Below, piece by piece: positions 1-60,911 of a stretch of 60,911 bases of DNA. Each line of letters begins with the position of its first letter. Within the stretch, counting starts at the first letter, position 1. The notes beneath the pieces are model-generated. The model had not been told where the DNA came from, made no database searches, and saw nothing but the letters and a program-made list of their open reading frames with translations. The stretch is from the IMG/VR virus record IMGVR_UViG_3300037193_002766, positions 1-60,911 of that record. One strand, 5' to 3'. Made by a program: the position numbers and the translations under genes. The stretch is from a virus.

Positions 1-141
1 GTGATGGGCACCGCACCGGAGAGGAACCGGGCGGAGATCGGGAAGGCGAGGTTGTTACGGGCGCGTGAGAGTTGGTCGGTAGACCTCGACGCGGAAGTTC
101 ACGACGTACTCGTGCCGGCCGTTGGCGTCGCGTCCCATGTA
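1..141. repeat. Terminal direct repeat, copy 1 (identical to 60771-60911)
   Basis: Read directly: gtgatgggcaccgcaccgga...cgtcccatgta occurs at both ends. Confidence 0.95.
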
Positions 142-5425: not shown

Positions 5426-6484
5426 TCAGGCGACCTTGACGTTGCGGAGCACGCCGCAGGACTTGGTGTTGCGCAGGACCATCGCGCCTGGGCCGATCTC
5501 GATCTCGCCGGACTTCACCGCGCCGGGCTGGGACCAGTCCGGCATGAAGGTCTCGACGAGCGGCTTGCCCGCCATCGCCGCGCCGTGGAACGAGTCCAGG
5601 CCGAAGCTGACGGCGTACAGGTCGGTGAGGCTGGTGATGTTGCCGCCCGCGCCGCCGCCGTCCGGGTCGCGCGTCTCGATCGGGATGATCGGGGACGCGG
5701 AGACCGCCTTGTCGCCGAGGTCCACGAGGGTCCACGGCCCGTAGGACTCGATCTGACGGCCCAGGTCGTCCTTGGTCTGGGTGTACTGCCCGGCCCACCG
5801 TGCGAGCGCCCGCATGCGGGTGATGCTCTTGGTGTTGCCCAGGATCGCGCGGCGACCGGCGGGAAGCCCGCCCGGTGCGCCGAGGTCGCCGCCGCCGACA
5901 CGCGACGGCACCAGGGTGGACAGCCAGTCGTCGACGATGTCGAGCTGGATGTTCGCCTTGGCCTGGGTGTCGATCGCACCAGGCGACCAGTCCGCGTACG
6001 AGATGCCGCTGGAGTTCGGCACGTACTCGGTGGTCGAGCCGGTGAGGAGCTTGTCGAGACCGTCGAAACCGTTGGCGTCAACGGCGACGTCACCGTTGAT
6101 GATCTCTTCCTGCAGCCGGATCGTCGCGCCGGTCATCAGTTCCTGCATCTGGAATGTGACCTCGTTGGTCTGCGCCGGACCCAGCGAGCGCAGAACGCGG
6201 TCGATGGAGAACGCGCCACCGAACGGCTTGAGCGTGACGCTCCTCTGCTCGCGGACCGCGGAGTCGACGGAGTACTCGGTGTTGAGCGCTCGGAACTGAC
6301 CGGAGCGCGGGGTCTTGAGCAGGGTGTAGCCGTAGATCAGCGAGGCACCACCCGTGCCAGGCGTCGCGGTGTCGTCCCACACGATCTGGTCCCACAGCCA
6401 GGAGTACTGGCGCAGGTTGCGGATGACCGCGTGGTCGATGTCAGCGCGGGCGTTGATCTCCGCCTGCGCAAGGGTGATGGGCAT
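5426..6484 (-). CDS. Major capsid protein (HK97-fold type)
   Basis: 352 aa, follows the scaffold gene. N terminus and length are typical of actinophage major capsid proteins. Confidence 0.8.
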   Translation of the reverse strand: MPITLAQAEINARADIDHAVIRNLRQYSWLWDQIVWDDTATPGTGGASLIYGYTLLKTPRSGQFRALNTEYSVDSAVREQRSVTLKPFGGAFSIDRVLRSLGPAQTNEVTFQMQELMTGATIRLQEEIINGDVAVDANGFDGLDKLLTGSTTEYVPNSSGISYADWSPGAIDTQAKANIQLDIVDDWLSTLVPSRVGGGDLGAPGGLPAGRRAILGNTKSITRMRALARWAGQYTQTKDDLGRQIESYGPWTLVDLGDKAVSASPIIPIETRDPDGGGAGGNITSLTDLYAVSFGLDSFHGAAMAGKPLVETFMPDWSQPGAVKSGEIEIGPGAMVLRNTKSCGVLRNVKVA

Positions 6485-21851: not shown

Positions 21852-21881
21852 TCTCACCTCTCACCTCACCCCCGTCTCACC
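21852..21881 (+). repeat. Cluster of four CTCACC motifs upstream of the translocase gene
   Basis: tctcacctctcacctcacccccgtctcacc. Motif copies start at 21853, 21860, 21865 and 21876. Confidence 0.85.
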
Positions 21882-21905
21882 GCCCTGACCTGCAAGGAGG
21901 TCGTC

Positions 21906-23955: not shown

Positions 23956-24046
23956 TCTCACCTCACCTCTCACCTCACCACCCGCACACGCTCATGTGTG
24001 CAGGTAGGGACGTGTGTCCGAGGGTGAGGTGAGAGGTGAGGTGAGA
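23956..24046. repeat. Perfect 24-bp inverted repeat built from CTCACC units (43-nt spacer)
   Basis: tctcacctcacctctcacctcacc at 23956-23979 is the exact reverse complement of 24023-24046. The spacer holds a GCACAC/GTGTGC mini-hairpin. Starts 2 nt after the translocase stop. Confidence 0.9.
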
Positions 24047-37107: not shown

Positions 37108-37416
37108 TCAGCGGGACCGCGACCTGGTGCGGACCCTGGGCGCCATGGGGGTGCGGAACTCGTCCGGCATGCGCTGCATGCGGGGACGGCGCTCGACCTC
37201 GCTCTGTCCGCCCCAGACGCCGGCGTCCTGGCCGTTCTCCAACGCCCAGGTGAGGCAGTCGGAGATGACGGGGCAGCGGTGGCAGACGGCCTTGGCTTCG
37301 TTGATCTGTGCGACGACAGCGGGGTTGGGGGTGCCGCCGGGGAAGAGTTCGTCGCCGATGGGGAAGAACAGTTCGGGGTCCTCGTAGCGGCAGATCGCGC
37401 GGCGGCGCCAGTTCAT
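37108..37416 (-). CDS. whiB: WhiB-family transcription factor
   Basis: 102 aa with four Cys (C9, C45, C48, C54) and a GVWGG turn. Confidence 0.9.
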   Translation of the reverse strand: MNWRRRAICRYEDPELFFPIGDELFPGGTPNPAVVAQINEAKAVCHRCPVISDCLTWALENGQDAGVWGGQSEVERRPRMQRMPDEFRTPMAPRVRTRSRSR

Positions 37417-37431: not shown

Positions 37432-37803
37432 CTAGCGCGCGTAGGCGCGGAGGTTGGCCTTGTCGAGCAGCTCGTCCGCGGTGATCGCGTACGCCGCCTC
37501 GTCCCACAGCTGCCAGTAGGTCGCGTTGGGCGGGTCGGTCGGGGCCGGGTGGTACGAGTCGGCCTCGAAGGCGGCCTTGTCGTCGGTGAAGTCGGGCTCG
37601 AAGCCGCGGGCGCGCCACTCGACGAGCAGGTGGTCGCGGATCAGGTCGTAGGCGGCCTGGTCGATGTCGTCGCGGAAGCCGGCGACCCACTCGAAGCCGT
37701 AGCGCTCGCGGAGGTCGACGATCGCGGGCTGGTCGCTGTTGTCCCAGGCGTAGGCGGGGCAGTCGATGACCTTGATGCGGGGTTCGGTGGTCGTGGTGGT
37801 CAT
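37432..37803 (-). CDS. Hypothetical protein, first gene after promoter copy A
   Basis: 123 aa, RBS GGAGAC. Confidence 0.6.
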   Translation of the reverse strand: MTTTTTEPRIKVIDCPAYAWDNSDQPAIVDLRERYGFEWVAGFRDDIDQAAYDLIRDHLLVEWRARGFEPDFTDDKAAFEADSYHPAPTDPPNATYWQLWDEAAYAITADELLDKANLRAYAR

Positions 37804-37836: not shown

Positions 37837-37871
37837 GCCTACATTACGCCTACAAAACGCCTACAAACAAG
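37837..37871 (-). promoter_or_regulatory. 35-bp promoter/operator cassette, copy A (identical to 46787-46821)
   Basis: gcctacattacgcctacaaaacgcctacaaacaag, three GCCTACA boxes 11 bp apart. The minus strand reads TTGTTT...TAATGT. Confidence 0.6.
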
Positions 37872-38012
37872 CCTCCGTGACACTTTCGTGTCTCGCCCGC
37901 AGGGGTCCAGATCGCCGCCGCACGCCTCATGACCTGCGGTGCATCCCATCGCCCGCATATTGCGCGAACCGCCTACACCGACCGGTCGCCGGTCGCGGTG
38001 CCGGGTTCGTCT

Positions 38013-38308
38013 GCAGGGTTTGGTGCAGGGTTTGCAGGGTTTGGGTTGGTGGATGCAGGGTTTGCGGCTGGTGTGGAATTTGTGGGTTGACCTGGGGTTT
38101 GCAGGGTTTGCCGGGTTTGCAGGGTTTGTTTTTGACCTCTACGTGTGGTGTGCGCGTGCGCATGTGCGCGTGTGCGCGCAGTGGCGGCGCCAGAAACCCT
38201 GCAAAGCCTGCAAAGCCTGCAATGTGCTGGTCAGGGGTGGTTTGGGTGGCGTTTGCAAACCCTGCATCTGGGCGGGAGAAACCCTGCGGGTAACCCTGCA
38301 AACCCTGC
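38013..38308. repeat. Iteron field: six GCAGGGTTTG direct copies, then seven inverted CAAA[C/G]CCTGC-type copies
   Basis: Plus-orientation copies start at 38013, 38025, 38034, 38055, 38101 and 38119, with partial copies at 38094 and 38112. Inverted copies start at 38193, 38202, 38211, 38256, 38278, 38290 and 38299. Confidence 0.85.
38148..38180. repeat. 33-nt perfectly alternating purine-pyrimidine tract (GTGCGC-type repeats)
   Basis: gtgtgcgcgtgcgcatgtgcgcgtgtgcgcgca at the centre of the iteron field. Confidence 0.85.
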
Positions 38309-38318
38309 GGCGCGTGGA

Positions 38319-38336
38319 TGTAGGCGCTGTGTAGGC
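38319..38336 (+). promoter_or_regulatory. Two TGTAGGC boxes (11-bp spacing) abutting the start codon of the 38339 gene
   Basis: gaTGTAGGCgctgTGTAGGCggATG. Same box as in the 35-bp cassette, in opposite orientation. Confidence 0.5.
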
Positions 38337-45971: not shown

Positions 45972-46439
45972 CTACGAGGCGCGGTGCGCGGGCTGGTAGC
46001 GGATCGGCTCGTCGTGACCAGCGAGGTAGTCGAGGATCACGTGGCCAGGCAGGAACAGCCGGGTGCCTCGGCGCTCTGCCGTGATCTTGGCGTCAGTGCC
46101 GTGGGTGAGGCGGTGCGCGATCTGGTACGGCACGCCGAGGAATGCGGCGAGGTTCTTGAGGAAGTACTCGCGGTCCGGATCGATGACCCGTCGCGGGTCG
46201 GTGATCCCGTCAGGCGTGCGGCCGAGGATGTCGACGATGGTCGCGCCGCTGACGAGGTACTGCTTGCCGGTGTTGCGGGTCGGCAGCTCCCCGTTGCGGA
46301 TCAACCGCCACACAGTGGACGGTGAGGCGTCGAAGACCTCGATCGTTTTCTCCGCGCTGTAGGCGACCTGCGGAACGTCCTGGTCGGCGTTGCCGAACAG
46401 GATGGTGCGGATCACCGACGGCGTGCTGGGGGTGCTCAT
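45972..46439 (-). CDS. Excisionase/MerR-type HTH DNA-binding protein
   Basis: 155 aa. STVWRLIRNGELP. Confidence 0.55.
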   Translation of the reverse strand: MSTPSTPSVIRTILFGNADQDVPQVAYSAEKTIEVFDASPSTVWRLIRNGELPTRNTGKQYLVSGATIVDILGRTPDGITDPRRVIDPDREYFLKNLAAFLGVPYQIAHRLTHGTDAKITAERRGTRLFLPGHVILDYLAGHDEPIRYQPAHRAS

Positions 46440-46783
46440 GCCACCTCCTGTGCCGTCTTCGACCGCGGGCCGGGCAGGGCTGCGGTGGCGTGCTCGATGC
46501 GCTCGCTGAGGACGGCCACCTGCTCGCGGAGGTCATCGAGCTGCTCCTCAGCGGCCGGGTTGTCGGCGAAGTCGGCGCGCAGTTTGTCGGCCGGGATGCC
46601 GAGCGCCTTGGCGAGGCGGACGACGGTCCGCGGCCGAGGCCGGCGGCGGCCCGCTTCGAGGTGCTGCACGCCGGACTCGGACATGCCGGCGCGTTGGGCG
46701 AGCTCGGCGAGCGAGAGTCCGGCCTTGGTGCGGTAGTGGCGGAGGCTGTGCCACCGGGGCGGTGGCGCGGTGGGCGGGTTCAT
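46436..46783 (-). CDS. Cro-like XRE-family HTH regulator, probably leaderless
   Basis: 115 aa. LSLAELAQRAGMSESGVQHLEAG. The ATG lies 7 nt after the TAATGT -10-like hexamer of promoter copy B, with no SD. Confidence 0.75.
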   Translation of the reverse strand: MNPPTAPPPRWHSLRHYRTKAGLSLAELAQRAGMSESGVQHLEAGRRRPRPRTVVRLAKALGIPADKLRADFADNPAAEEQLDDLREQVAVLSERIEHATAALPGPRSKTAQEVA

Positions 46784-46786
46784 GCC

Positions 46787-46821
46787 GCCTACATTACGCC
46801 TACAAAACGCCTACAAACAAG
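46787..46821 (-). promoter_or_regulatory. 35-bp promoter/operator cassette, copy B (identical to 37837-37871)
   Basis: Exact repeat read directly. Lies in the divergent CI/Cro-like intergenic region. Confidence 0.65.
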
Positions 46822-46894
46822 GGTTGGGTCGATCTTGTTGCTCCACCTGCCCTAACCGGGCGTGACACGGCCTACCAGGGCGTAGCGGTCTGCG

Positions 46895-47422
46895 ATGCTT
46901 TGCGGGACGATGCGCCCCATGAGCGACACGGCACACGAGTGGCCCCTGGGAGAACGCGTGCGTGAGGCGCGCGGCGAGGAGTCGCACAAGTCGGTCGCTC
47001 GCCGCGCCGGGATCGGGGCGGAGACGGTCTGGCAGATCGAGAACGGGCGGCGCCGCGCCGTCGGGCCATTCAGTCGGCCTAAGCCGGACACGATCGCGAA
47101 GCTCGCGCGGGCGCTGGGCATCCCCGTCTCGGAGGCGCTGACCCTCGCCGGGTACAACCCGGAGAACTACGTCAACCTGCTGGACGAGGGTGTCGAAACG
47201 GCGCTGGCCCGGAAGATGGCGAAGCTTCAGCCGGAAGAGCAGCGGGCTCTCGAGATCCTCGTCGACGGCCTGCTGGTGGCACGCGGGCACATGAGTGCCG
47301 GGGGCGGCGCCACGGTCGACGTCGTGGTGCGGTCCGCTGGGGAAGAAGTCAAGACCGACGTCCAGTCTCACGGCGAACCGGTCAACGGTGCGGTGCCGTC
47401 GCGGCAGCCGCAGGAGGACTAG
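46895..47422 (+). CDS. CI-like XRE-family HTH repressor candidate
   Basis: 175 aa, with alternative starts at 46910 and 46919. SVARRAGIGAETVWQIENG. Divergent from the cro-like gene. Confidence 0.7.
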   Translation: MLCGTMRPMSDTAHEWPLGERVREARGEESHKSVARRAGIGAETVWQIENGRRRAVGPFSRPKPDTIAKLARALGIPVSEALTLAGYNPENYVNLLDEGVETALARKMAKLQPEEQRALEILVDGLLVARGHMSAGGGATVDVVVRSAGEEVKTDVQSHGEPVNGAVPSRQPQED

Positions 47423-47694
47423 CTGGCAGTGCGGCGCCGGCGCTGCGTTCGGGAGTCTTCGATCGCGTCGGCGAGAATGCCGCGCTCGGTGCTGGGGTCC
47501 AGCTCTCCGTACGGGTAGATGCGGTGAATGTCGTACCGCTTGCCGTTCTCGTCCTCGGTGAAGGTTTGCACCACGGTGACGCAGTGCGTAATGACGGTGG
47601 TCGAGTCGAGTTTTCCGGCTTGTCTTAATGCCTCGGCAACGCCGTCACCAAGGGTGAGGTGGGAACTGCTCTCGCGGTCCATGCTCTCCGTCAT
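47419..47694 (-). CDS. Hypothetical protein between repressor and attP
   Basis: 91 aa from ATG 47694, preceded by GGGGGA. The ORF track extends to 47757. Confidence 0.5.
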   Translation of the reverse strand: MTESMDRESSSHLTLGDGVAEALRQAGKLDSTTVITHCVTVVQTFTEDENGKRYDIHRIYPYGELDPSTERGILADAIEDSRTQRRRRTAS

Positions 47695-47894: not shown

Positions 47895-48043
47895 AATCGT
47901 TTGTCAGAACATGATCGTTCCAAACGATTACCCAACGCCTACAAGCAAGAACGTGCGGTAGGTTAGCGCAAGCGTGCACACGGTCAACGCAACGGACACG
48001 CAACTCTGGGGCAGGTCAACGCGACACTGTCGCGGATCAACGG
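47895..48043. promoter_or_regulatory. attP left arm with repeat elements (candidate arm-type sites)
   Basis: 9-bp inverted repeat AATCGTTTG/CAAACGATT (47895-47903 and 47921-47929). CCCAACGCCTAC at 47931-47942. [G/A]TCAACG-containing repeats starting at 47982, 48014 and 48035. Confidence 0.5.
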
Positions 48044-48084
48044 AACGTAACCGTAAGTGAGCAAAAGATGGAACGCACACCCGT

Positions 48085-48117
48085 CCAGTCTGGGTTCGAC
48101 TCCCAGTGGGGGCACAA
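48085..48117 (+). other. Putative attP core: 3-prime fragment of a tRNA gene
   Basis: T arm CTGGG-TTCGACT-CCCAG (48090-48106), acceptor strand TGGGGGC (48107-48113), discriminator A. About 100 bp upstream of the integrase start. Confidence 0.65.
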
Positions 48118-48127
48118 GAAACCGCAG

Positions 48128-48196
48128 GTAGGCGGGCTAGACACCCGCCTACAAAGCGCCTACATTGGTCGCACCCAACGAAAACCCAACGCTTAC
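48128..48196. promoter_or_regulatory. attP right arm / int control region
   Basis: Inverted repeat GTAGGCGGG-7 nt-CCCGCCTAC (48128-48152). GCCTACA boxes at 48147 and 48158, 11 bp apart. CCCAACG at 48174 and CCCAACGCTTAC at 48185. Confidence 0.55.
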
Positions 48197-48215: not shown

Positions 48216-49454
48216 GTGGCTAGGCCTCCGCTGGAGATCGGCACCTACGGAGAGATCTACAGGTCAGCGCGCGTGGACGGCAGATGGATGCCGTTGGACG
48301 ATGTTCCCGAGGGCGCCACGCCTGACCAGTTCAAGGCGTCGGCCCGCTACCGCCCCAAGGACGGGCACACGCGGCAGATGGAGCGCGTCGGGACCACCGT
48401 GAACAAGGCGGTGCAGAACCTCAAGAAGGCACTCGCCGAGCGACTCGGTAACAGCAAGACCGGCAAAATCACCGCAGGCACGCGGTTCAGCGTTGCCGCG
48501 GCGGAGTACCTCAGCCTCGTGCGCCAACGACAGGTCGGTACCACCTACGACAGGTACAAGGGCCGCTACAAGTGCCACCTGGCGCCCGCACTCGACGGGC
48601 TGTTGATTCGCGAGTGCACGCCGAAAAGGCTCACCGAGGTCTTCCGCGAATTGGAGGCCGCTGGCCTATCCGCCCAAACGCGGCGTGGCATCAAGACCGT
48701 CCTCAGCGGCATTCTGCAAGAGGCCATCAACCAAGGCGCCCTGGAGGTCAACCCGGCGCGGTCGATGGAGCGCATCAAGGGGCAGCGCCGCAAGAAGCAG
48801 GTCGCGCTCGACGGCACCGCGCTCGTCACCTTCTTCGCGCGGCTCGACGGCGACGATGTCGCATGCCGGCAGGACCTGCCGGACTTCCTTCGACTGCTCT
48901 TCGGCGTCGGGTGCCGCTACGGCGAGGCGCTCGCCCTGCGGTGGCGCGACATCAACCTGACCGACGAAACGGTCATCGCCGAAGACGGCTACGGCAACGA
49001 GGTCGAGCTGCCTCCTCGCAGCATCTGGTTCAACGGCAACCTGGTGCACATCACCGGTCAGGGCGTCGTTCGCCACGAGGGCAAGACCTTCACGAGTAAC
49101 GGCGTGGTCATCATGCCGGAGTTCCTGTACCTGATGCTGTTGATCCGCAAGCCTGTCGGTGCCGGGCTTGACGACCCGGTGTTCCCGAGCCAGACGATGG
49201 GGTGGCGGTCGCCGTCCAACATGCAGCGGTCGGTGCGGCGGATGCGGATCCGCATCGGTTACCCGAAGCTGAGGACCCACGACGGCCGGCGGTCCGTCGC
49301 GACGGCGCTCGACAAGGCCGGGCAGACCGGTCGGGTCATCGCTCAGGTGCTGCGGCAGGCGAAGCCGTCGATGGCGCAGGACCGGTACATGGATCTGCGG
49401 TCGCCGAGCGCTGAAGCGGCGGCTGCGCTGGATCGCCTTCATGGGGCGGCCTGA
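48216..49454 (+). CDS. int: Tyrosine integrase
   Basis: 412 aa from GTG 48216 (the ORF track starts at TTG 48165). Arg in CRYGEALALRWRDI, H-x-x-R in THDGRRSVAT, and a C-terminal Tyr in AQDRYMD. Confidence 0.9.
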   Translation: MARPPLEIGTYGEIYRSARVDGRWMPLDDVPEGATPDQFKASARYRPKDGHTRQMERVGTTVNKAVQNLKKALAERLGNSKTGKITAGTRFSVAAAEYLSLVRQRQVGTTYDRYKGRYKCHLAPALDGLLIRECTPKRLTEVFRELEAAGLSAQTRRGIKTVLSGILQEAINQGALEVNPARSMERIKGQRRKKQVALDGTALVTFFARLDGDDVACRQDLPDFLRLLFGVGCRYGEALALRWRDINLTDETVIAEDGYGNEVELPPRSIWFNGNLVHITGQGVVRHEGKTFTSNGVVIMPEFLYLMLLIRKPVGAGLDDPVFPSQTMGWRSPSNMQRSVRRMRIRIGYPKLRTHDGRRSVATALDKAGQTGRVIAQVLRQAKPSMAQDRYMDLRSPSAEAAAALDRLHGAA

Positions 49455-60770: not shown

Positions 60771-60911
60771 GTGATGGGCACCGCACCGGAGAGGAACCGG
60801 GCGGAGATCGGGAAGGCGAGGTTGTTACGGGCGCGTGAGAGTTGGTCGGTAGACCTCGACGCGGAAGTTCACGACGTACTCGTGCCGGCCGTTGGCGTCG
60901 CGTCCCATGTA
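60771..60911. repeat. Terminal direct repeat, copy 2 (identical to 1-141)
   Basis: Read directly. Confidence 0.95.

What the first reader, a model, noticed from the sequence alone, without database searches (positions are those of the whole stretch)
46781..46821. Exact 35-bp promoter/operator cassette present twice; one copy makes the Cro-like gene leaderless
gcctacattacgcctacaaaacgcctacaaacaag occurs identically at 46787-46821 and at 37837-37871. It contains three GCCTACA boxes spaced exactly 11 bp apart, about one helical turn. Read on the minus strand it gives TTGTTT...TAATGT, that is -35-like and TANNNT -10-like hexamers.
- At copy B the -10-like hexamer ends 7 nt before the ATG of the Cro-like gene (46783), with no Shine-Dalgarno sequence. 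This predicts a leaderless early transcript.
- At copy A the same promoter precedes the 37803 gene by about 30 nt, with an SD.
The early region is therefore split into two units driven by duplicated, presumably co-regulated promoters. The units are separated by the iteron field and a small plus-strand island. Same-face triple boxes suggest cooperative binding by the CI-like or Cro-like protein.
Basis: partly seen in the sequence, partly recalled or inferred. Interest (0 to 1): 0.65.

Follow-up and report, generated by a model that had tools for sequence, protein, structure and literature searches.

The report
Phage promoter-operator module, three copies
The duplicated 35-bp sequence is a real, conserved promoter built around three evenly spaced protein-binding boxes; an uncultured temperate actinobacteriophage uses it at two early operons and, in a two-box form, at its integrase promoter inside the attachment site, which is a normal kind of phage switch wiring whose binding protein is still unidentified.

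Summary
The 35-mer occurs exactly twice (0 expected). GCCTACA occurs 18 times against about 2.9 expected, and every neighbouring pair is exactly 11 bp apart.

Ten related uncultured phages keep the GTAGGC box cores, a TTG (-35) and a TAnnnT (-10), while the other spacer bases drift. All keep the Cro-like ATG 7 nt after the -10, with no room for a Shine-Dalgarno sequence. The promoter and the leaderless reading are therefore supported by conservation, but not by transcript mapping. Exact A = B identity is peculiar to this phage (27-32 of 35 in relatives).

Two boxes fill the spacer and -10 of a conserved integrase promoter inside attP. The attP core is a tRNA 3' end, and a lysogen junction contig supports it. 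A different motif, ACCCAACG, is the likely integrase arm site.

The boxes are best read as repressor operators that co-regulate three promoters. The binder is unresolved:
- CI-like repressor: narrowly favoured.
- A tandem Xis/BldC-like winged-helix protein in the early operon: close rival, Apl/Cox-like.
- Cro-like protein: least likely.

Overall this is a new member of known kinds and of moderate interest.

The parts
46787..46821 (-). Copy B (P_B): promoter-operator module. It holds three boxes (46787-93, 46798-804, 46809-15), a -35 TTGTTT at 46820->46815 and a -10 TAATGT at 46796->46791.
   Evidence: Exact repeat. The frame is conserved in 9 related switch regions. It contains the only TAnnnT on the minus strand of the 137-bp switch.
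46436..46783 (-). Cro-like XRE-HTH gene (115 aa). It is predicted to be leaderless: the ATG at 46783 lies 7 nt after the -10.
   Evidence: HTH_31/HTH_3 hits. The geometry CAT+3 nt+box 1 is invariant in all relatives. The N-terminus MxPP...PWHSLRH is conserved.
45972..46439 (-). HTH_17 protein (155 aa), the second gene of the P_B operon. It is a tandem Xis/BldC-like winged helix, the probable recombination directionality factor, and a candidate box binder.
   Evidence: Pfam HTH_17. AF2 model with pLDDT 80 shows two b-a-a-b-b-a units. Foldseek top hits are BldC-DNA, Pukovnik Xis and P2 Cox. The helix and wing are invariant.
46895..47422 (+). CI-like XRE-HTH repressor gene, divergent from the Cro-like gene. 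The start is ATG 46895, 46910 or 46919; gene callers chose 46919.
   Evidence: HTH_31 and PHROG repressor families. The model shows a 5-helix HTH, a 3-helix domain and a conserved disordered tail. Foldseek hits are DdrO, SinR, Stl and phage repressors.
46822..46918 (+). Nearly invariant non-coding block between the boxes and the CI-like start. It includes the near-box GCCTACC at 46871-46877 and the palindrome CGTGACACG at 46861-46869.
   Evidence: Alignment of 7 phages is almost identical, although the flanking proteins are about 65% identical.
37837..37871 (-). Copy A (P_A): the same module, with boxes at 37837-43, 37848-54 and 37859-65, a -35 at 37870->37865 and a -10 at 37846->37841. It has a leader of about 30 nt with a GGAG SD before ATG 37803.
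   Evidence: Exact repeat. Conserved in 5 of 5 relatives that cover it.
37432..37803 (-). First gene of the P_A operon (123 aa, no family hit). It is followed by a WhiB-like gene at 37108-37416 and further minus-strand genes.
   Evidence: GC3 gene map. Pfam WhiB hit. The first gene is only 29% identical in the sister phage.
37877..37894 (.). Conserved palindrome or hairpin GTGACAC-TTTC-GTGTCTC immediately upstream of the P_A -35.
   Evidence: Conserved in 5 of 5 relatives and perfect in L004. The fold is modest, about -11.8 kcal/mol for the 40-nt stretch folded. The motif is not enriched genome-wide.
48138..48166 (+). P_int: TAGACA-17-TACATT, with two boxes (48147-53, 48158-64) filling the spacer and the -10. 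It lies 50 nt upstream of the int GTG.
   Evidence: It is the only strict sigma-70 scan hit in 11 kb. TTGnnn-17/18-TACA(G/T)T with two boxes is conserved in 5 of 5 relatives.
48216..49454 (+). Tyrosine integrase (412 aa from GTG 48216).
   Evidence: Pfam Phage_integrase and PHROG_1. It is 79% identical in the sister phage.
48081..48114 (+). attP common core, equal to the 3' part of a tRNA gene (T-arm 48090-48106, acceptor strand 48107-48113, discriminator A 48114).
   Evidence: The T-stem covaries between phages, CTGGG/CCCAG against GTGCG/CGCAC. A contig in run X3 follows the phage from 48400 back to 48081 and then diverges into sequence resembling a tRNA D-arm and anticodon arm, as an attL junction would.
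47930..47937 (+). ACCCAACG, the probable Int arm-type site in the P arm. Two more copies lie at 48173-48180 and 48184-48191 in the P' arm.
   Evidence: These are the only three copies in the genome and all are in attP. They are invariant in relatives. The motif also lies next to integrases 28-57% identical in L033, Rothia and Tsukamurella.
47937..47943 (+). Single box in the attP P arm, the end of a degenerate three-unit array at 47915-47949 (69% identical to the 35-mer).
   Evidence: It is only partly conserved in relatives: GCCTACC or GCCTACT in most, lost in L005.
48128..48152 (.). Inverted repeat GTAGGCGGG-N7-CCCGCCTAC, that is an inverted box facing the first P' box, with the P_int -35 in the loop.
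   Evidence: Perfect 9-nt arms. The arms change in a compensatory way in L005 and L006. The predicted hairpin is -20.8 kcal/mol.
38319..38336 (+). Two boxes (TGTAGGC-gctg-TGTAGGC, 11 bp apart) just upstream of the plus-strand island gene (ATG 38339 or 38363).
   Evidence: Only the second box is well conserved in relatives. No TAnnnT is evident here.
37971..37977 (+). Single conserved box at the left edge of the iteron field, followed by GACCGGTC-type repeats.
   Evidence: Conserved in 5 of 5 relatives.

Best explanation
The 35-mer is one instance of a conserved composite promoter-operator.

**The module.** A housekeeping-sigma-type promoter (TTG, 17-18 nt, TAnnnT) has its spacer, -10 and start site tiled by three 7-bp boxes (TGTAGGC in the direction of transcription). 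The boxes are spaced one helical turn apart, so all lie on one face of the DNA.

**Where the phage uses it.**
- P_B fires directly into the ATG of the Cro-like gene, giving a leaderless early operon: Cro-like, Xis-like, exonuclease, recombination genes, primase.
- P_A drives a second early operon (unknown gene, WhiB-like and others) through a leader of about 30 nt with an SD.
- A two-box version on the other strand forms the integrase promoter in the attP P' arm.

**How it most likely works.** A phage-encoded protein binds the boxes cooperatively, head to tail, and blocks RNA polymerase. This shuts P_A, P_B and P_int together. The three-box sites would be held more tightly than the two-box P_int.

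**Who binds (inferred, not shown).**
- I narrowly favour the CI-like repressor (about 0.45). Some prophage-expressed protein must silence both early promoters, and the boxes are the only element the two promoters share.
- The Xis/BldC-like tandem winged-helix protein may use the same boxes as an Apl/Cox-type regulator (about 0.35-0.4). The two are not mutually exclusive.

Shown here: the sequence facts, the conservation pattern, the attP assignment and the protein folds. Inferred: promoter activity, transcription start sites, repression and the identity of the binder.
For: - Exact duplicate and box enrichment. All neighbouring boxes are 11 bp apart.
- In 14 arrays from 10 phages the GTAGGC cores, the TTG and the TA of spacer 1 are kept. 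The second spacer and the other positions drift. There are always three boxes at P_A and P_B.
- The -10-to-ATG distance is invariant at P_B. This ATG is the only start upstream of the HTH.
- P_int (TTGnnn-17/18-TACAGT with two boxes) is conserved in 5 of 5 relatives and is the sole strict sigma-70 scan hit.
- The boxes lie between -35 and +1, a repressor position rather than an activator position (read directly from the sequence).
- Copy A is retained upstream of a replaced gene.
- Synteny int / CI-like / Cro-like / HTH_17 holds in all relatives.
- The CI-like helix 3 is invariant.
- Precedent: the BPs repressor controls four promoters, with O_R between -35 and -10 (PMC4557955).
- Precedent: lambda has triple operators at two early promoters, and P2 C binds direct repeats (my own knowledge).
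Against: - No transcript 5' ends or binding data exist. Runs X1-X4 are assembled contigs with flat depth.
- The hexamers are weak against the E. coli consensus (3 of 6 each) and fail the strict scan.
- The CI-like protein has the fold of dimeric XRE repressors (DdrO, SinR, 434, P22 c2). Those normally read dyad-symmetric sites, not direct repeats.
- A homologue with the same recognition helix (P0018, in L064) sits in an element without box arrays.
- The box core never varies in the family, so no covariation test could assign the binder.
Confidence: 0.7

Rival explanations
1. Apl/Cox-type reading. The boxes are the operators of the tandem Xis/BldC-like winged-helix protein (45972-46439), which would be a dual-purpose recombination directionality factor.

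- It would be made from P_B after infection or induction.
- It would coat the phased boxes in the attP/attL P' arm to direct excision and shut P_int.
- It would feed back negatively on P_B and P_A.
- The immunity repressor would act through other, unidentified sites.
For: - Direct repeats of a 6-7-bp unit at 11-bp spacing, in arrays of 2-3, present both at att and at early promoters. This is the stated signature of RDFs such as Apl, which also needs three adjacent operators. RDFs repress int promoters in KplE1 and P4 (PMC7498355).
- The AF2 model shows two winged-helix units. Its best structural matches are BldC on direct-repeat DNA, Pukovnik Xis and P2 Cox.
- BldC binds 2-4 direct repeats head to tail (PMC5859096).
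- The D29 Xis homologue Gp36 represses phage genes through GC-rich direct repeats (PMC12266134).
- The P' boxes lie between the core and the ACCCAACG arm sites.
- The recognition helix and wing are invariant.
Against: - The arrays fill the whole core of P_A and P_B, leaving no room for a separate immunity operator. The protein is encoded in the operon it would have to silence in a lysogen, so it cannot be the maintenance repressor.
- A two-domain protein does not fit three boxes neatly.
- The second domain is not detectable by sequence.
- Other phased repeats in the P arm (GGTCAACGC at 47982 and 48014, GATCAACGG at 48036) could be the true RDF sites.
Confidence: 0.35
2. The Cro-like protein (46436-46783) is the box reader, autoregulating its own leaderless operon and P_A, as the first reader proposed as one option.
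For: It is the first product of P_B and sits at the divergent switch. In lambdoid phages Cro shares operators with CI (PMC7498355 discussion).
Against: Its predicted recognition helix comes in two variants (SESGVQHLE and SKS[HYF][IV]EHLE), which differ at typical base-contact positions, while the GTAGGC core is invariant in the same phages. It is an XRE-type HTH facing direct repeats.
Confidence: 0.12
3. The boxes are integrase arm-type sites. The promoter copies would be secondary Int-binding sites.
For: Boxes occur on both arms of attP, and three adjacent direct repeats resemble the lambda P'1-3 sites (the lambda comparison is my own knowledge).
Against: - ACCCAACG is the attP-restricted motif (3 of 3 genomic copies). 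It is invariant in relatives and travels with integrases down to 28% identity.
- L033 has a 57%-identical Int, the same core type and the ACCCAACG pair, but no GCCTACA boxes.
- The P-arm box is lost in L005.
- Most boxes lie 1.3-10 kb from attP.
Confidence: 0.03
4. A host OmpR/PhoB-type response regulator binds the arrays. Such regulators read 11-nt direct-repeat units of about 7 conserved and 4 variable bases, and would tie phage early transcription to a host signal.
For: The unit architecture (7 conserved + 4 variable, 11-bp period, 2-3 units) matches actinobacterial response-regulator boxes (my own knowledge). BldC paper discussion of response regulators that bind direct repeats.
Against: No known box of this sequence. 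The host is unknown. The sites are confined to phage regulatory regions and sit in repressor positions at three promoters, alongside phage-encoded candidates. This was not testable here.
Confidence: 0.05
5. Promoter only. The 11-bp periodicity would be a by-product of tandem duplication of a promoter fragment, and no protein reads the boxes.
For: The array is formally an 11-nt tandem repeat. Generic 11-nt GCCTAC tandem repeats are common in metagenomes.
Against: - Box cores are invariant while the spacers drift in 14 arrays, which is the opposite of a neutral tandem repeat.
- The copy number is fixed at three.
- The same box is used on the opposite strand at P_int, and as single or inverted copies elsewhere.
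Confidence: 0.04

Closest known systems
Apl of coliphage 186 and Cox of P2/HP1 (dual-purpose RDF and switch regulators)
   Same: Short (6-bp) operators as direct repeats 10-11 bp apart, present both at attP and at the early promoters. Binding is cooperative and needs about three adjacent sites. The regulator is a small winged-helix protein encoded at the start of the early lytic operon (PMC7498355). P2 Cox is among the structural matches of the HTH_17 protein.
   Different: In P2-like phages the promoters face each other, the Apl/Cox sites lie between them, and the immunity operators are distinct. Here the promoters are divergent and the boxes tile the promoter core itself. Here the candidate protein is a fused two-domain protein of 155 aa. 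Binding is untested. The host is an actinobacterium.
Mycobacteriophage BPs gp33 repressor system (cluster G, integration-dependent immunity)
   Same: An actinophage with the int / repressor / cro gene order (the presence of an xis gene downstream is my own recollection). One repressor controls several dispersed promoters. O_R sits between the -35 and -10 of the early lytic promoter (PMC4557955).
   Different: BPs operators are 12-bp palindromes with a variable second half-site. In BPs attP lies inside the repressor gene. Here attP is intergenic (48081-48114) and the sites are phased direct repeats. There is no detectable protein homology.
Lambda O_L/O_R
   Same: Two early promoters are co-regulated through triple operator arrays of the same sequence family. 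One of them sits at a divergent CI/Cro switch (my own knowledge).
   Different: Lambda operators are 17-bp dyads about 24 bp apart, and P_L and P_R diverge. Here the units are 7-bp direct repeats at 11 bp, both early promoters point the same way, and a third copy controls int.
BldC of Streptomyces, and D29/L5 Gp36 (Xis-type MerR-like proteins acting as transcription regulators)
   Same: Small Xis-like winged-helix proteins of Actinobacteria or their phages. They bind variable numbers of direct repeats head to tail and repress transcription (PMC5859096, PMC12266134). BldC is the top structural match.
   Different: BldC reads AT-rich AATT-N4-C units. Gp36 reads AGGCGGC-N13-AGGCGGC. Both are single-domain proteins. 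No attP/promoter duality has been shown for BldC.
KplE1 TorI/IntS and P4 Vis (int promoter embedded in the att region)
   Same: The integrase promoter lies inside the attachment-site arm and is overlapped by recombination or regulatory protein sites, so int is shut by the same proteins that act at att (cited in PMC7498355).
   Different: Those are enterobacterial prophages. Here the same boxes also control two distant early promoters.

Membership tests
Housekeeping-sigma (sigma-70/sigma-A type) promoter | A -10 hexamer TAnnnT, with a -35 TTGnnn 16-19 nt upstream | tested here: met
   TTGTTT-18-TAATGT at both copies. TTG and TAnnnT are kept in 14 of 14 arrays with a 17-18-nt spacer. P_int TAGACA-17-TACATT passes the strict scan. 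P_A and P_B fail that E. coli-tuned scan.
Housekeeping-sigma (sigma-70/sigma-A type) promoter | A transcription start mapped 6-8 nt downstream of the -10 | not testable with these tools
   The only runs that hold the phage are assembled contigs without 5'-end information.
Leaderless mRNA | Start codon at or within a few nt of the predicted +1, with no SD | tested here: met
   Seven nt lie between the -10 and the ATG, and the upstream sequence is the promoter itself. The geometry is invariant in 9 of 9 switch regions. It is the only start compatible with the HTH.
Leaderless mRNA | Experimental 5' end at the start codon and translation from it | not testable with these tools
   No transcriptome or proteome is available for this uncultured phage.
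Apl/Cox-type dual-function RDF operators | Direct repeats about one helical turn apart, in arrays | tested here: met
   All six neighbouring pairs are 11 bp apart, in arrays of 2 or 3.
Apl/Cox-type dual-function RDF operators | The same operators at the att site and at the early promoters | tested here: met
   Boxes lie in the attP P' arm (48147, 48158, inverted 48128), in the P arm (47937), and at P_A and P_B. attP is supported by the tRNA core and an attL-like junction.
Apl/Cox-type dual-function RDF operators | A winged-helix RDF encoded by the element binds them, bends DNA and stimulates excision | not testable with these tools
   A candidate exists (HTH_17, Xis/BldC/Cox-like fold). Binding and excision were not assayed.
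Lambdoid CI/Cro operators | Dyad-symmetric sites read by an HTH dimer | tested here: not met
   The arrays are head-to-tail direct repeats. No inverted repeat was found in the switch. The partial dyad TAC-A-GTA is explained by the overlapping -10 elements.
Lambdoid CI/Cro operators | Sites lie at a divergent repressor/cro switch and overlap the lytic promoter | tested here: met
   Divergent XRE genes are present, and the boxes span -35 to +1 of P_B.
Integrase arm-type sites | Restricted to attP arms and co-inherited with the integrase family | tested here: not met
   GCCTACA is mostly outside attP and is absent from the P' arm of L033, whose Int is 57% identical. ACCCAACG meets both criteria instead.
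Replication iterons / partition centromere | Identity with the repeats of the origin or par site | tested here: not met
   The iteron field repeats GCAGGGTTT, a different unit. Only a single box abuts it (37971).

The most novel reading that the evidence does not exclude
A covalently fused, two-domain Xis/BldC-like winged-helix protein is an actinophage counterpart of Apl/Cox. One protein would read the same helically phased 7-bp boxes in the attP arm, in the integrase promoter and in two early promoters. That would couple excision directionality, int shut-off and early-gene feedback. It would compete for, or share, the boxes with the immunity repressor.
Probability: 0.3. Interest if true: 0.55.

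Novelty: new member of a known kind. Interest (0 to 1): 0.4.

Why it matters
- **Regulatory map.** The work gives an uncultured, roughly 61-kb temperate actinophage lineage a fairly complete map: two early promoters, an int promoter, attP with its core and arm sites, and the candidate regulators. This lineage has no homologues of its switch proteins among 50,697 cultured phage records.
- **Compact, testable design.** The promoter is literally built from operator boxes. The box contributes to the -10 on either strand, and two- and three-box versions could give graded repression.
It would extend the Apl/Cox dual-function RDF principle from P2-like coliphages to high-GC Gram-positive phages, with a new fused-domain architecture.
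It would be an XRE repressor that reads phased direct repeats.
- **Practical use.** The 35-mer plus its repressor would make a small, portable, leaderless-compatible switch for actinobacterial genetics.

Tried and rejected
1. Megablast of the 12-kb region, and tblastn of the CI-like and HTH_17 proteins, against cultured phages found nothing. The primase and the integrase found only distant hits of 28-33%.
2. Single-protein bait searches of the viral and genome collections found only the sister contig.
3. A covariation test to assign the binder was impossible. All ten phages keep the same box core, and all three regulator families are confined to the same small phage group.
4. The P-arm pattern scan (ACGNTTACCCAACGCC) returned only chance hits and did not reach the other end of the L033 prophage.
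5. Array-only scans (GCCTAC-N5-GCCTAC-N5-GCCTAC) of the viral and metagenome collections returned unrelated 11-nt tandem repeats. None encoded any candidate protein.
6. L064, which carries a CI-like homologue with the same helix in an integrative-element-like context, has no arrays. This is inconclusive.
7. GTGACAC as a second shared operator is not enriched genome-wide, at 6 found against about 15 expected.
8. RNA structure in the invariant leader could not be assessed. There is no variation, so there is no covariation.
9. Transcript 5' ends could not be mapped. Only assembled contigs are available.
10. Internal sequence similarity between the two halves of the HTH_17 protein was not detected.
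11. The Int arm-site reading of the boxes was rejected in favour of ACCCAACG.
12. No tRNA gene is present in the window itself.
Full report
**1. The observation**

The 35-mer GCCTACATTACGCCTACAAAACGCCTACAAACAAG is present exactly twice, at 37837-37871 and 46787-46821. No other match exists at up to three mismatches, and none appeared in shuffles.

The duplication is present in the reads. In public runs X1 and X2 the 35-mer forms its own unitig at roughly double the flanking depth, and loose ends at its borders read into the copy-A flanks.

The 7-bp box GCCTACA occurs 18 times against 2.9 +/- 1.7 expected. Every pair of neighbouring boxes in the window is exactly 11 bp apart.

On the minus strand, copy B reads TTGTTT, 18 nt, TAATGT, then 7 nt, then the ATG at 46783 of a 115-aa XRE-HTH gene. 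Copy A has the same promoter about 30 nt upstream of a GGAG-preceded ATG at 37803.

**2. What the window is**

The window carries a 141-bp terminal overlap, is 68% G+C, and has no close relative among cultured phages. It encodes an SPP1-like portal, a tape-measure protein, a lysin-like protein and WhiB. It also encodes a primase-like protein, a tyrosine integrase and a divergent pair of XRE regulators. It is a circularly assembled genome of an uncultured temperate siphovirus-type actinobacteriophage.

The nearest integrases, at 28% identity, are in Gordonia, Arthrobacter, Mycobacterium, Rhodococcus and Tsukamurella phages.

**3. Comparative evidence for a promoter-operator**

I recovered related genomes and fragments from IMG/VR, JGI and Logan: L001/L031, L003, L004, L005, L006, L063, L065 and L066/L067. 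All share the order HTH_17 <- Cro-like <- | -> CI-like, small gene, attP, -> int.

Every switch region has CAT + 3 nt + [GCCTAC(A/T)-N4] x 3 + (A)CAAG. Read in the direction of transcription, the 14 arrays (9 P_B, 5 P_A) behave as follows:
- The three GTAGGC cores, the TTG and the TA of the spacer nearest the gene (giving TAATGT, TACTGT, TAGTGT, TACAGT or TATTGT) are kept.
- The second spacer and the remaining positions drift.

This is the pattern expected if both the promoter hexamers and the boxes are functional. The distance from the -10 to the Cro-like ATG never changes, and there is no room for an SD, so the leaderless prediction is conserved too.

Copy A is retained upstream of a first gene that is only 29% identical in the sister phage.

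Exact A = B identity is special to this phage. Relatives show 27-32 of 35. This suggests recent gene conversion, or drift towards the copy-A consensus, in this lineage. It does not indicate a conserved 35-bp cassette.

**4. A third copy, and attP**

The other box clusters led to the region upstream of int. Positions 48081-48114 are the 3' part of a tRNA gene (T-arm 48090-48106).
- The T-stem covaries between phages.
- A contig in run X3 follows the phage from 48400 back to 48081 and then switches to sequence that looks like a tRNA D-arm and anticodon arm, as an attL junction would.

ACCCAACG occurs only three times in the genome, all in the attP arms. It is invariant in relatives. It also accompanies integrases of 28-57% identity in L033, Rothia and Tsukamurella. 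L033 has that Int, that core and that pair but no GCCTACA boxes. ACCCAACG is therefore the likely Int arm-type site, and the boxes belong to a different system.

The two P' boxes (48147, 48158) fill the spacer and -10 of TAGACA-17-TACATT, the only strict sigma-70 hit in 11 kb. A TTGnnn-17/18-TACAGT frame with two boxes is conserved in 5 of 5 relatives.

The box thus contributes to a -10 on either strand: TAnnGT through its TGT, or TACAnT through its TACA.

Further sites:
- a P-arm box (47937), which is less conserved;
- an inverted box (48128) forming a 9-nt perfect inverted repeat around the P_int -35, with compensatory flank changes in L005 and L006;
- a pair before the plus-strand island (38319-38336);
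- a conserved single box at the iteron edge (37971).

**5. How it most likely works**

Boxes that run from just downstream of the -35 through the start site are in a repressor position. Helical phasing puts them on one face of the DNA, which suits cooperative head-to-tail binding.

I conclude, with confidence of about 0.7, that this is a composite promoter-operator that lets one protein shut P_A, P_B and P_int together. Three-box sites would probably be held more tightly than the two-box P_int.

In the 137-bp switch there is only one TAnnnT per strand, and the two overlap in box 1. The only sigma-A-type -10 candidate for the CI-like gene is therefore back-to-back with that of P_B, upstream of a nearly invariant ~100-nt block. 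This step is inference.

**6. Who binds the boxes**

- **CI-like protein (175 aa).** The model shows a 5-helix XRE HTH, a 3-helix domain and a conserved disordered tail. The nearest folds are DdrO, SinR, Stl and phage repressors. It is the only regulator positioned to be made in a lysogen, and it must silence two promoters whose only shared element is the box array. Its helix 3 is invariant. Against it: such dimers normally read dyads, and a homologue with the same helix (P0018, L064) has no arrays nearby.
- **HTH_17 protein (155 aa).** The AF2 model (pLDDT 80) shows two tandem winged-helix units. The best matches are BldC on direct-repeat DNA, Pukovnik Xis and P2 Cox. This fold class reads phased direct repeats. 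Apl of phage 186 does so both at attP and at the early promoters and needs three adjacent sites, and RDFs repress int promoters in KplE1 and P4 (PMC7498355). BldC and D29 Gp36 are actinobacterial examples of the fold class acting as regulators. Against it: it cannot be the maintenance repressor, no space is left for a separate immunity operator, two domains fit three boxes poorly, and the second domain is seen only in the model.
- **Cro-like protein.** Its recognition helix has two variants, while the box core is invariant. This lowers its odds.

My estimates, which are not mutually exclusive: CI-like about 0.45, HTH_17 about 0.35-0.4, Cro-like about 0.12, and host factor or none about 0.1.

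**7. Comparison with known systems, and novelty**

- The cis logic matches lambda (triple operators at two early promoters).
- It matches BPs (one repressor, several promoters, operator between -35 and -10; PMC4557955).
- It matches Apl/Cox (phased direct repeats at att and at promoters).
- Leaderless first genes are common in Actinobacteria (my own knowledge).

The finding is therefore a new member of known kinds in an uncharacterised phage lineage.

The interesting twists are the promoter built from operator boxes, its reuse on the opposite strand for P_int inside attP, and a possible fused-domain Apl/Cox analogue. I score interest at 0.4.

**8. Limits**

No transcription starts or binding data exist. 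The box never varies, so no covariation test was possible. The array-only and P-arm scans were uninformative. The host is unknown.

Noticed in passing
window 37985-38300: Iteron field: many copies of GCAGGGTTT in both orientations (for example the 40-nt arms 38088-38127 and 38194-38233). They flank an alternating purine-pyrimidine tract (GTGCGCGTGCGCATGTGCGCGTGTGCGCGC, about 38140-38180). The field is conserved in relatives with unit variants (GCAGGGGTT) and is a probable replication origin.
   Followed up: partly
window 46822-46918: The block between the boxes and the CI-like start is almost invariant at the nucleotide level in 7 phages, although the flanking proteins are only about 65% identical. 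It has no TAnnnT on the plus strand. It could be a long regulatory leader or a dense operator region. L063 lacks part of it.
   Followed up: partly
window 48128-48152 (also L005, L006): A perfect 9-nt inverted repeat (GTAGGCGGG / CCCGCCTAC) encloses the P_int -35. The three bases flanking the box differ between phages but stay complementary (GGG/CCC, GCC/GGC, ACC/GGT). This hints at selection for a hairpin, perhaps a terminator for the reconstituted tRNA after integration.
   Followed up: partly
window 47982-48044: Phased repeats lie in the attP P arm between the arm site and the core: GGTCAACGC at 47982 and 48014, and GATCAACGG at 48036. GGT(C/G)A(A/G)CG pairs are conserved in relatives and in L033. 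They are candidates for alternative RDF or host-factor sites.
   Followed up: no
window 47895-47929: A perfect 9-nt inverted repeat, AATCGTTTG / CAAACGATT, lies at the outer edge of the P arm. The left arm is conserved in relatives.
   Followed up: no
run X3 contig laid at window 48081: The probable attL junction reads ...CCCAATCGGCAGAGGCAGCGGACTCAAAAT | CCGTCCAGTCTGGGTTCGA.... The anticodon loop would read CAA, yet the variable region is short, so the identity of the target tRNA is unclear.
   Followed up: partly
window 45972-46439: The HTH_17 protein appears to be two winged-helix units fused in one chain. Only the first is recognised by Pfam, and the halves share no detectable sequence similarity.
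   Followed up: yes
window 47279-47422 (CI-like residues about 129-175): The CI-like C-terminal tail (DVVVRSAGEEV..DVQSHGEP) is conserved across the family but is predicted to be disordered. It may be a degradation or partner-docking motif relevant to induction. No S24 peptidase domain is present.
   Followed up: no
A5 alignment; arrays: The two Cro-like recognition-helix classes partly track the base after the box core. GTAGGC-A occurs at boxes 2 and 3 in the SKS-class phages L003, L004 and L006, and GTAGGC-G occurs in most SES-class phages. There are too few independent lineages to judge.
   Followed up: partly
window 47419-47682: A small conserved minus-strand gene (87 aa, no family hit) is tail-to-tail with the CI-like gene and lies next to attP. 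It looks locally lower in G+C by eye (not measured). Function unknown.
   Followed up: no
window 23956-24046 and 21853-21894: CTCACC-type repeats form a perfect 24-nt inverted repeat (23956-23979 / 24023-24046) just after a 721-aa plus-strand gene, with a related copy upstream of that gene. It is likely a strong terminator or regulatory hairpin.
   Followed up: no
L064 (Logan SRR23929182), 5620-6009: A 129-aa homologue of the CI-like HTH (60% identical, same recognition helix) sits in an element that looks integrative or conjugative, with GntR and a small HTH_17 gene and without box arrays.
   Followed up: partly
window 1-141 and 60771-60911: An exact 141-bp terminal direct repeat, consistent with a circular assembly overlap rather than a biological terminal repeat.
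   Followed up: no
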